Shown here in pieces: positions 12,871 through 13,155 of a stretch of 14,389 nucleotides of DNA (within the stretch, counting starts at the first letter, position 1; each line of letters starts with the position of its first letter). The notes below the pieces were generated by a model. It did no database searches. It saw nothing but the letters and a program-made list of their open reading frames with translations, and was not told the DNA's origin. The stretch spans positions 1 through 14,389 of the IMG/VR virus record IMGVR_UViG_3300015157_000027; one strand, written 5' to 3'. This stretch comes from a virus (taxonomy: Duplodnaviria > Heunggongvirae > Uroviricota > Caudoviricetes). The position numbers were made by a program, and so were the translations under genes.

Positions 12871-13155
12871 TCAAATATAGAAATAAACACCAAAACAAAC
12901 AGTAACAGGAACAACAAAGTCAAACAGGCTTCCAACATCCCATACGCGCGGATCAAAACCTCCCCACCACGGCATATTCATACGCTTGCCATGCCCGAAC
13001 ATTTCAATCCAGCGATATTCTGCCTGGGTGTGTTCACGCGCAATGAAGAACGTACAACCGGCTATCGCCCCGTAAGCCCAGTTTCCGGTAAAAAGGCCAA
13101 TCAGTACCTGCGCAGCCACAGCACAAAACGCATGAAGGAAAGGCGTTATATCCAT
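12871..13155 (-). CDS. Small integral membrane protein (94 aa) between the tail-fibre-like gene and the lysis cassette; unknown function
   Basis: Start at ATG 13155 with a strong RBS (AAGGAG, about 5-nt spacing), not the ORF-track 13224. Two or three hydrophobic segments (FLHAFCAVAAQVLIGLF, AYGAIAGCTFFIA, LFDFVVPVTVCFGVYFYI). Followed by a 9-bp-stem hairpin at 12844-12864. Confidence 0.5.
   Translation of the reverse strand: MDITPFLHAFCAVAAQVLIGLFTGNWAYGAIAGCTFFIAREHTQAEYRWIEMFGHGKRMNMPWWGGFDPRVWDVGSLFDFVVPVTVCFGVYFYI

What the first reader, a model, noticed from the sequence alone, without database searches (positions are those of the whole stretch)
12871..13155. Small membrane protein inserted between the tail-fibre-like gene and the lysis cassette
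A 94-aa polytopic membrane protein with a strong RBS lies directly after the receptor-binding-type gene and is followed by a stable hairpin and a 209-bp AT-rich spacer. Small membrane proteins at this position in temperate phages are commonly superinfection-exclusion or receptor-masking factors; alternatively it could be a lysis regulator. I could not place it in a known family.
Basis: inference. Interest (0 to 1): 0.45.

Follow-up and report, generated by a model that had tools for sequence, protein, structure and literature searches.

The report
Widespread uncharacterised phage membrane protein
The 94-residue membrane protein is a real gene from a very common but unstudied family that tailed phages carry directly behind their receptor-binding genes; its function is unknown, and the evidence favours a general action on the cell envelope over masking of one receptor.

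Summary
On the minus strand, 13155-12871 encodes a 94-aa protein with a strong ribosome-binding site. It lies 34 nt after a tail-fibre gene. A 9-bp hairpin and a spacer follow it, then a complete lysis cassette.

- **The gene is real.** It matches phrog_1443 at E 7e-55, has about 1,200 homologues, and dN/dS is 0.11-0.20.
- **No characterised relative.** AlphaFold gives a confident three-helix membrane bundle (pLDDT 94.6). No sequence or fold search linked it to any characterised family.
- **Very common.** 1,904 of 5,426 complete E. coli genomes carry it, up to 7 copies each, always annotated "hypothetical".
- **Position.** In podo-, sipho- and myovirus prophages of several proteobacterial classes it sits right behind unrelated tail-fibre, tailspike or J genes, often with overlapping or near-abutting start and stop codons.
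- **What moves.** Only the ORF plus its ribosome-binding site is shared between phage types (about 91-93% nucleotide identity). No promoter travels with it.
- **Same slot elsewhere.** phiV10 and Tyrion carry an O-antigen acetyltransferase there.
- **Non-prophage copies.** Homologues also occur in Aeromonas and sphingomonad chromosomes and in Aeromonas jumbo phages.

Receptor masking looks unlikely. A receptor-independent action at the envelope or inner membrane is my best guess, but it is unproven. Interest is moderate.

The parts
12871..13155 (-). 94-aa three-helix membrane protein gene, phrog_1443 family (stop TGA 12873-12871)
   Evidence: Translation. phrog_1443 E 6.9e-55. AlphaFold2 pLDDT 94.6 with helices 4-23, 26-53 and 74-93. 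dN/dS 0.11-0.20. RefSeq calls the same 285-nt CDS in E. coli E-1246.
13161..13167 (-). Ribosome-binding site AAAGGAG, 5 nt before the ATG; it lies within the DNA stretch shared with most lambdoid copies
   Evidence: Sequence. DNA homology with lambdoid copies starts at 13168 in most loci and at 13159 in the rest.
12905..13168 (-). The stretch shared with lambdoid prophage copies: RBS plus the first ~83 codons, about 91-93% nucleotide identity, with unrelated flanks
   Evidence: blastn of the window region against 160 fetched loci.
12844..12864 (-). Hairpin CCGCGCCAU-UUG-AUGGCGCGG starting 6 nt after the stop codon; no U-tract follows
   Evidence: It is conserved in the phiv142-3-type phages. 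One G-C to G-U change keeps pairing on the coding strand, and one locus has a flipped loop.
12662..12870 (-). 209-bp spacer at 38% GC. The part from 12721 downward is shared with phiV10 and Tyrion and belongs to the region upstream of the lysis cassette. Weak promoter-like sites at 12764-12737 and 12730-12702.
13190..14389 (-). 3' part of the tail-fibre (receptor-binding) gene, which runs off the window end; 35% GC
   Evidence: phrog_18162 E 4.8e-200. The frame stays open to the window end. The full ORF is 771 aa in near-identical loci L075-L078.
10837..12661 (-). Lysis cassette: Phage_holin_8 protein (12245-12661), Phage_holin_3_7 holin (11950-12258), GH19 endolysin (11331-11960), Rz-type spanin (10837-11334) with an embedded ORF carrying a lipoprotein-type motif
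   Evidence: The phiV10 annotation has the same layout.

Best explanation
The gene encodes a non-structural accessory membrane protein that phages carry as a promoter-less cassette (ORF plus ribosome-binding site) at the 3' end of the receptor-binding (tail-fibre) gene block. It is therefore most probably made together with the late tail genes.

The protein is predicted to form a compact three-helix membrane bundle. One face of each helix is conserved: H8-A12-Q16-G20-G24 on helix 1, G29-G33-F37-E41-A45 on helix 2, and S76/D79-P83-C87 on helix 3. A nearly invariant 35-residue loop rich in Trp and Arg, [AG]RE-x-x-QAEYRWI...G-x-R-x-NMPWWGGFD-x-R-x-W, lies at one membrane face.

I infer that this invariant surface engages a component of the envelope or inner membrane that is conserved across Proteobacteria, such as a lipid, a lipid-linked intermediate, an ion or a core membrane protein. 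I infer that it does not engage the particular receptor recognised by the neighbouring fibre. The likely pay-off for the phage is receptor-independent protection of the infected or lysogenic cell, for example a block after adsorption.

**Shown:** gene reality, fold class, conservation pattern, genomic position, cassette boundaries, prevalence.
**Inferred:** late co-expression, a conserved target, an exclusion-type benefit.
For: **Position**
- The same slot in phiV10 and Tyrion holds an O-antigen acetyltransferase; the phiV10 record describes it as functioning in superinfection immunity.
- The gene is absent from most related Uetakeviruses that share the lysis cassette.
- It lies directly after tail-fibre, tailspike or J genes in:
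  - E. coli podophages;
  - about 68 of 80 IMG/VR E. coli loci with a lambdoid layout (Stf, a 92-aa ORF, a distal fibre tip, then the gene);
  - phage 21;
  - a P2-like Leclercia prophage;
  - a Comamonas siphophage;
  - 8 of 10 further loci tested, including one from Desulfovibrio.
- Gaps to the upstream gene are mostly -19 to +42 nt.

**Mobility and selection**
- Only RBS plus ORF (13168/13159 to 12905) is shared between the podophage and lambdoid contexts, at about 91-93% nucleotide identity.
- It is independent of the receptor-binding domain. The window fibre and the phage 21 Stf show no similarity, while the two small proteins are 82% identical.
- Purifying selection is strong (dN/dS 0.11-0.20).
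- In a set spanning mainly Gammaproteobacteria plus a Betaproteobacterium, D2, H8, Q16, G29, C34, R40, E41, Q44-W49, R58, P62, W64-G66 and W72 are invariant. In the most divergent set, E41 and W72 are invariant and H8, R40, Q44, A45, E46 and P83 are at least 90% conserved.

**Structure and prevalence**
- The AlphaFold2 model is confident.
- 35% of complete E. coli genomes carry it, median 2 copies per carrier.
Against: - There is no experimental or homology link to any exclusion protein.
  - Pfam, NCBIfam and PADLOC give nothing.
  - Profile comparisons with HK97 gp15, P22 SieA and GtrA give probabilities below 1%.
- Known exclusion proteins usually evolve fast and are phage-specific. This family is enzyme-like in its conservation.
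- Members sit among housekeeping genes in sphingomonads (recN-ligA, ftsZ, prmA, a DsbA-like gene) and in Aeromonas chromosomes.
- No promoter for lysogen expression was found. Promoter-like sites are not enriched: 7 found against 4.2 +/- 2.2 expected.
- Being next to fibre genes may only reflect that the ends of operons tolerate insertions.
- Topology is unresolved, so I do not know which side of the membrane the invariant loop faces.
Confidence: 0.32

Rival explanations
1. The family has an intrinsic membrane biochemical role: a very small membrane enzyme, or an ion- or metal-binding protein or channel. Its normal job would be cellular physiology. Phages would carry it as an auxiliary gene to keep the envelope or membrane energetics favourable during late infection, not to exclude other phages.
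For: - Polar and ionisable residues inside or at the edge of the membrane are invariant or nearly so: H8, Q16, E41, E46, D79, and R40, R48, R58.
- Glycine-zipper-like stripes line one face of each helix.
- Identity is 40-60% between an E. coli phage copy and alpha-, beta- and gammaproteobacterial copies.
- Stand-alone chromosomal copies sit among housekeeping genes in sphingomonads and Aeromonas.
- The gene is present in several related Aeromonas jumbo phages.
- All 150 listed cluster representatives (of 440) are small proteins of about 58-146 aa; none is fused to a larger domain.
Against: - H42 and the GG of the loop vary in distant members.
- 94 residues is very small for an enzyme.
- This reading does not explain the consistent position after receptor-binding genes.
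Confidence: 0.28
2. It is a lysis-timing modulator, either antiholin-like or acting on membrane potential, made with the late genes and acting on holin triggering.
For: - It lies immediately upstream of the lysis cassette here and in phiv142-3.
- It also lies upstream of lysis genes in Comamonas L017 (Rz-like spanin) and Pantoea L034 (endolysin), and of two 2-TM proteins in L160.
- In lambdoid phages it may share the late transcript with the lysis genes (my own knowledge of lambda, not tested here).
- It is a small multi-helix membrane protein with glycine-rich helix faces.
Against: - In about 68 of 80 E. coli loci, in phage 21 and in the P2-like prophage it stays with the fibre genes, not the lysis genes.
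- The downstream lysis cassettes in the different phages showed no BLASTP similarity to this window's.
- No similarity to the window's two holin-family proteins; only 1 of 110 members gave a weak holin Pfam hit.
- Here a hairpin and a 209-bp spacer with separate promoter-like sites separate it from the cassette.
- Chromosomal orphans have no lysis genes nearby.
Confidence: 0.12
3. It is a receptor-specific masking factor, like Cor or T5 Llp, that blocks the receptor used by the adjacent tail fibre.
For: Its position next to the receptor-binding gene resembles llp/oad in T5 and cor in phi80 and N15 (my own knowledge). The slot is occupied by the O-antigen acetyltransferase in phiV10.
Against: - The same protein (82-89% identical) follows unrelated receptor-binding domains.
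- It has no lipoprotein signal (sequence).
- It is predicted to be an integral inner-membrane bundle with no soluble domain that could reach the outer membrane.
Confidence: 0.04
4. It takes part in tail-fibre assembly or in infection itself, as a membrane-bound helper or a virion-associated membrane-inserting protein.
For: - Its start overlaps or nearly abuts the stop of fibre genes or small fibre-adjacent genes in many phages.
- It recurs next to a 92-95-aa acidic protein (phrog_1361/18574) in both E. coli lambdoid and Comamonas phages.
Against: - It is absent from close relatives that are viable phages, such as phiV10, TL-2011b, PAS61 and ZX5.
- It occurs in chromosomes with no phage genes nearby.
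- It follows fibres of unrelated architecture.
Confidence: 0.06

Closest known systems
phrog_1443 (PHROGs v4, function unknown); phage 21 CPT_21_24 'putative membrane protein'; phiv142-3 Orf5
   Same: Full-length HMM match at E 6.9e-55. 82-89% identity to the phage 21 and phiv142-3 proteins. Same position after the fibre gene.
   Different: Nothing is known about the function of any member. The last ~11 codons and the downstream hairpin are specific to the Uetakevirus version.
phiV10 Oac (O-antigen acetyltransferase) and the Tyrion O-antigen acetylase
   Same: They occupy exactly the same slot, between the tail fibre and the Phage_holin_8/holin/GH19/Rz cassette, in phages of the same genus.
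   Different: They are large acyltransferases (338 and 624 aa) on the opposite strand. The 94-aa protein is co-oriented with the fibre gene, has no promoter of its own that I could find, and shows no homology to them.
HK97 gp15 (moron-encoded inner-membrane exclusion protein), P22 SieA, T4 Imm
   Same: Small phage-encoded inner-membrane proteins that are not needed for virion formation. gp15 also sits inside the tail gene block.
   Different: hhalign probabilities are below 1% for gp15 and SieA, and no family member hit any exclusion-protein Pfam family. In the records, gp15 has its own putative terminator and sieA its own promoter. This family is far more conserved and also occurs in chromosomes.
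Cor (phi80/N15) and T5 Llp, receptor-blocking lipoproteins
   Same: Encoded next to the receptor-binding gene. Llp also protects infected cells and progeny (my own knowledge).
   Different: Those are outer-membrane lipoproteins specific to one receptor. This protein has no lipobox, is an integral three-helix bundle and does not co-vary with the receptor-binding domain.
GtrA (P22 gtrABC O-antigen glucosylation)
   Same: A small multi-helix membrane protein encoded beside the tailspike gene.
   Different: hhalign probability 0.1% and no hit to a GtrA Pfam family. No gtrB or gtrC partner is nearby.

Membership tests
phrog_1443 (uncharacterised phage protein family) | Full-length match to the family HMM | tested here: met
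   E 6.9e-55, residues 1-94 against profile positions 1-94 of 97.
Moron in the sense of Hendrix and Juhala (autonomous extra gene with its own promoter and terminator) | Present or absent between otherwise similar phages; composition differs from its neighbours | tested here: met
   Absent from phiV10, Tyrion, TL-2011b, PAS61 and ZX5, which share the lysis cassette. GC is 47.7% against 35.3% for the adjacent fibre region.
Moron in the sense of Hendrix and Juhala (autonomous extra gene with its own promoter and terminator) | Its own promoter upstream and a terminator downstream that travel with the gene | tested here: not met
   The DNA shared between contexts is only 13168/13159 to 12905, i.e. 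RBS plus ORF. No promoter-like site lies in the 34-nt gap, and sites are not enriched. The hairpin has no U-tract and is not shared with lambdoid copies.
Superinfection-exclusion membrane proteins (T4 Imm, P22 SieA/SieB, HK97 gp15) | Sequence or profile homology to a characterised member | tested here: not met
   hhalign probability 0.5% for gp15 and 0.2% for SieA. No exclusion-protein family among the Pfam hits shown for the 110 members at E up to 5. No PADLOC hit.
Superinfection-exclusion membrane proteins (T4 Imm, P22 SieA/SieB, HK97 gp15) | Expression blocks infection by the same or other phages | not testable with these tools
   Needs plating, adsorption and DNA-entry assays.
Receptor-blocking lipoproteins (Cor, T5 Llp) | Lipoprotein signal peptide with a lipobox cysteine | tested here: not met
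   The N-terminus is MDITPFLHAF..., with no lipobox. Only one distant representative (P0159) has a lipoprotein-type leader.
Receptor-blocking lipoproteins (Cor, T5 Llp) | Specific to, and co-inherited with, one receptor-binding protein | tested here: not met
   The same protein follows unrelated fibres.
O-antigen modification proteins (GtrA, Oac acyltransferase) | Homology to GtrA or an acyltransferase family, and for Gtr the gtrB/gtrC partners | tested here: not met
   hhalign probability 0.1% against P22 GtrA. No such Pfam hits. No partner genes in the window.
Holins and antiholins | Match to a holin family, or a consistent place inside lysis cassettes | tested here: not met
   hhalign probabilities 0.4% and 0.2% against the window's two holin-family proteins. 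1 of 110 members gave a weak Phage_holin_8 hit. Most loci are not next to lysis genes.
PhoR N-terminal membrane domain (PF11808) | Score above the Pfam gathering threshold, or profile-level similarity | tested here: not met
   14 bits against a cut-off of 27.1; 9 of 110 members gave weak hits. hhalign probability 0.2% against E. coli PhoR residues 1-110.

The most novel reading that the evidence does not exclude
phrog_1443 proteins are a new class of very small (about 95 aa) membrane-embedded catalysts or ion- or lipid-binding modules built around a buried His/Gln/Glu/Asp cluster and an invariant interfacial loop rich in Trp and Arg. Phages of all three tailed morphotypes attach this module to their receptor-binding genes to alter a universal envelope component. 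The result would be a receptor-independent block to phage entry that works across Proteobacteria and is present in about a third of E. coli genomes.
Probability: 0.15. Interest if true: 0.7.

Novelty: new variant of a known kind. Interest (0 to 1): 0.45.

Why it matters
If the family has a defined activity, it would be among the commonest prophage cargo genes in E. coli without an assigned function. 1,904 of 5,426 complete genomes carry it, with up to 7 copies each.

It moves between podo-, sipho- and myoviruses as a bare ORF-plus-RBS cassette. Its high conservation and small size make it easy to study by mutagenesis and structure determination.

- A receptor-independent exclusion or envelope-remodelling function would affect phage host-range prediction and phage therapy against E. 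coli.
- A purely physiological function would add a new small membrane protein family that is also chromosomal in Aeromonas and sphingomonads.

Tried and rejected
- **Family libraries.** Pfam, NCBIfam and PADLOC scans of the protein gave nothing significant. A Pfam scan of 110 diverse members at E up to 5 gave only scattered weak hits. The most frequent was the PhoR N-terminal domain (9 of 110, below threshold). I rejected it because hhalign against E. coli PhoR 1-110 gave probability 0.2%.
- **Potassium-channel idea.** The WWGGFD motif loosely resembles a selectivity filter, and the weak PDB hits were to KcsA and NaK. I rejected this because the E-values exceed 1, the GG is not conserved in distant members, and the model has no pore-helix layout.
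- **Specific candidates.** Profile comparisons with the window's two holin-family proteins, HK97 gp15, P22 SieA and P22 GtrA all gave probabilities below 1%.
- **Link to one fibre type.** Rejected: the window fibre and the phage 21 Stf show no similarity.
- **Link to one lysis-cassette type.** Rejected: no BLASTP similarity for the three pairs compared.
- **Hairpin as terminator.** Rejected as a canonical intrinsic terminator because there is no U-tract. Rfam found nothing in 12500-13400.
- **Literature.** No study of any member was found. The phiv142-3 paper did not test orf5. The only non-generic name in the databases is 'Ybl63'.
- **Topology.** This stayed unresolved.
  - The variable C-tail and the helix 1-2 turn carry Lys/Arg, and the short N-tail is acidic, which suggests N-out, C-in.
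  - The conserved loop itself has about 5 Lys/Arg, which points the other way.
  - The phage 21 record cites TMHMM as predicting 2 membrane segments, N-in and C-in.

Full report
**1. What is in the sequence**

The feature is on the minus strand. ATG 13155 to TGA 12873-12871 encodes MDITPFLHAFCAVAAQVLIGLFTGNWAYGAIAGCTFFIAREHTQAEYRWIEMFGHGKRMNMPWWGGFDPRVWDVGSLFDFVVPVTVCFGVYFYI, 94 aa. AAAGGAG (13167-13161) sits 5 nt before the ATG.

The mechanical ORF list gives a 117-aa version starting at 13224. Three things point to the 94-aa start. Homologues begin MD-x-[ST]-P. DNA similarity to other copies begins at 13168 or 13159. RefSeq annotates the 285-nt CDS in E. coli E-1246.

The gene upstream on the same strand ends at 13190 and runs off the window. 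It is a tail-fibre protein (phrog_18162, E 4.8e-200). Six nucleotides after the stop codon lies a 9-bp, GC-rich hairpin (12864-12844; dG -16.6 kcal/mol, z -3.7). No U-tract follows it and the terminator scan did not call it.

The 209-bp spacer (12662-12870) is 38% GC. A complete lysis cassette follows: a Phage_holin_8 protein, a Phage_holin_3_7 holin, a GH19 endolysin and a DUF2514 Rz-type spanin. A P4-type integrase comes next. The rest of the window is a typical phiV10/epsilon15-like temperate podophage of the genus Uetakevirus.

**2. Is it a real gene?**

Yes. It matches phrog_1443 over its full length (E 6.9e-55). Two searches of the 5.8-billion-protein collection gave 558 and 656 homologues. 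A profile search of 1.84 billion cluster representatives found 440 clusters; the 150 listed are all small proteins of 58-146 aa. Against nine other E. coli copies dN/dS is 0.11-0.20.

**3. The protein**

Hydropathy and an AlphaFold2 model (pLDDT 94.6, pTM 0.78) give three helices at 4-23, 26-53 and 74-93, with a structured loop at 54-73. Conservation is unusually strong for a small phage membrane protein.

- In a set spanning mainly Gammaproteobacteria plus a Betaproteobacterium, these residues are invariant: D2, H8, Q16, G29, C34, R40, E41, Q44-A45-E46-Y47-R48-W49, R58, P62, W64-G65-G66 and W72.
- In the most divergent set, E41 and W72 are invariant, and H8, R40, Q44, A45, E46 and P83 are at least 90% conserved.
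- The conserved positions form an i, i+4 stripe on each helix. Examples are H8-A12-Q16-G20-G24 and G29-G33-F37-E41-A45. This pattern fits a tightly packed bundle with a polar core near one membrane face.

Topology is not settled.

- The variable C-terminal tails average 1.7 Lys/Arg, the helix 1-2 turn often carries Arg, and the short N-tail is acidic. These features favour N-out, C-in and would put the invariant loop in the periplasm.
- One representative has a lipoprotein-type leader and another has an extra N-terminal hydrophobic segment, which fits the same orientation.
- The loop itself has about 5 Lys/Arg, and some homologues have basic N-tails, which points the other way.
- The phage 21 record cites TMHMM as giving two membrane segments, N-in and C-in.

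**4. Attempts to place it in a known family**

**5. Where it occurs**

*(a) Prevalence.* 1,904 of 5,426 complete E. coli genomes carry it. The median is 2 copies per carrier, the maximum 7, and 57 copies are on plasmids.

*(b) E. coli phage contexts.*
- In phiv142-3-type Uetakeviruses the slot is the same as in this window.
- About 68 of the 80 best IMG/VR loci are lambdoid. Their order is side tail fibre, a 92-aa acidic ORF (phrog_1361/18574), a distal fibre tip of 234 or 346 aa, then the gene.
- In phage 21 the gene lies between that 92-aa ORF and sitABCD.

*(c) Other phages.*
- A P2-like Leclercia prophage has the gene starting at the stop of a 939-aa fibre that carries an S74 chaperone domain.
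- A Comamonas siphophage has J (2,520 aa), a 72-aa ORF, then the gene.
- In 8 of 10 further loci tested, the large ORF upstream is a tail fibre, tailspike or J protein. These loci include Acidovorax, Pantoea, Comamonas and Desulfovibrio.
- Gaps to the upstream gene are mostly -19 to +42 nt.

*(d) Lysis genes downstream.* They follow in this window, in Comamonas L017 and in Pantoea L034. Those cassettes showed no BLASTP similarity to this one. In lambdoid and P2-like phages the gene stays with the fibre genes.

*(e) Contexts that are not prophages.*
- Sphingomonads carry it beside recN-ligA, ftsZ, prmA, a DsbA-like gene and other housekeeping genes.
- Aeromonas chromosomes carry it between a pirin gene and a RIO1-type kinase gene.
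- A shorter subfamily occurs in Aeromonas jumbo phages and in an Aeromonas podophage.

**6. What moves**

Between this podophage and the lambdoid copies, DNA similarity of about 91-93% covers only 13168/13159 to 12905. That is the ribosome-binding site and the first ~83 codons. Everything outside it is unrelated.

The last ~11 codons, the hairpin and the spacer down to 12722 are specific to the phiv142-3-type phages. From 12721 downward the spacer is shared with phiV10 and Tyrion and belongs to the lysis cassette. No promoter or terminator travels with the gene, and promoter-like sites are not enriched. So this is not a classical autonomous moron. It is a promoter-less cassette that depends on the transcript of the fibre gene ahead of it.

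**7. The slot**

In phiV10 and Tyrion the same slot, between the fibre and the Phage_holin_8 gene, holds an O-antigen acetyltransferase on the opposite strand. The phiV10 record describes it as functioning in superinfection immunity. Most relatives that share the lysis cassette lack the 94-aa gene. The slot is therefore a genuine accessory slot used for surface modification.

**8. Interpretation**

Three findings change the picture.

- The protein does not co-vary with the receptor-binding domain. Receptor-specific masking is therefore unlikely.
- It looks co-expressed with late tail genes rather than expressed from its own promoter in the lysogen.
- Its conservation across proteobacterial classes, its chromosomal copies and its presence in Aeromonas jumbo phages all point the same way. 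They suggest a conserved biochemical or binding activity aimed at a universal envelope or inner-membrane component.

I commit to a receptor-independent action at the envelope or inner membrane that protects the infected or lysogenic cell, at 0.32 confidence. The close rival is that the activity is physiological and not exclusion at all (0.28). A lysis-timing role (0.12), a role in fibre assembly or infection (0.06) and receptor masking (0.04) are less likely. About 0.18 remains for functions I have not considered.

**9. Novelty and score**

The family is catalogued (phrog_1443) but wholly uncharacterised. The kind of thing, accessory membrane cargo next to receptor-binding genes, is familiar. 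The promoter-less cassette, the cross-class conservation and the chromosomal members are unusual for that kind.

Interest is 0.45. A specialist would not be astonished. However, this is an extremely common E. coli prophage gene with a sharply defined motif that is easy to mutate, and the experiments are simple.

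Noticed in passing
window 12844-12864; L079 around 6293-6313: In one related IMG/VR locus (L079) the hairpin's 3-nt loop reads CAA instead of TTG while both arms are unchanged, so the loop has flipped. In the phiv142-3 group a C-to-T change in the 3' arm keeps a G-U pair on the coding strand only, which hints that the hairpin works at the RNA level.
   Followed up: partly
window 12708-12721 (minus strand): The palindrome AACCAT-AA-ATGGTT lies exactly where similarity to phiV10 and Tyrion begins. It overlaps a promoter-like site (GTAACA-17-TATCAT, 12730-12702) upstream of the lysis cassette. It could be a regulator-binding site for late or lysis transcription.
   Followed up: no
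L002 4710-4988; L014 5714-6001; L017 5432-5998; L005 4627-4908: A soluble acidic protein of 92-95 aa (phrog_1361/18574, function unknown) recurs between the tail fibre and the membrane-protein gene in E. coli lambdoid prophages and in Comamonas phages. It may be a fibre chaperone, or it may be functionally linked to the membrane protein.
   Followed up: partly
L162 (E. coli E-1246 chromosome) 1-5052: In the near-identical prophage of strain E-1246, an ISEcp1-blaCTX-M-15 unit and a Tn3 fragment lie next to a truncated BRO-N gene. This is about 1.6 kb upstream of the tail-fibre gene.
   Followed up: no
L001 (phiv142-3) 3780-6285: A published knock-out of orf6 (the tail-fibre gene directly upstream of the homologue, orf5) reduced growth in serum and under low iron in the lysogen (PMC7724020). 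The authors state, with data not shown, that transcription of downstream genes was unaffected. A polar effect on orf5 was not specifically examined.
   Followed up: partly
window 13190-14389 versus 12871-13155: The C-terminal part of the tail-fibre gene is 35% GC, against 47-48% for the membrane-protein gene and the whole window. Related loci (L001, L079) share everything downstream of the ATG but have a different fibre. The receptor-binding part looks like a separately exchanged module.
   Followed up: partly
window 10860-11243 (minus strand), inside the Rz gene 10837-11334: An ORF embedded out of frame contains [17 protein letters not shown], which looks like a lipoprotein signal. This fits an Rz1-type outer-membrane spanin nested in Rz, as annotated in phiV10.
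   Followed up: no
proteins P0146, P0197, P0255, P0159, P0178: Three cluster representatives carry a hydrophilic insertion of about 45 aa, rich in Tyr and Glu, between the RWIE-x-FG and R-x-NMPW motifs. One has a lipoprotein-type leader (MKRLLAAILICSQLVGC) and one has an extra N-terminal hydrophobic segment. These variants could help settle the topology.
   Followed up: partly
L125 / L129 (IMGVR_UViG_2724679539_000001): Two copies of the gene lie in inverted orientation about 5.4 kb apart on one viral contig (matches at 960-1214 and 6865-6611). This could be an invertible or duplicated fibre region.
   Followed up: no
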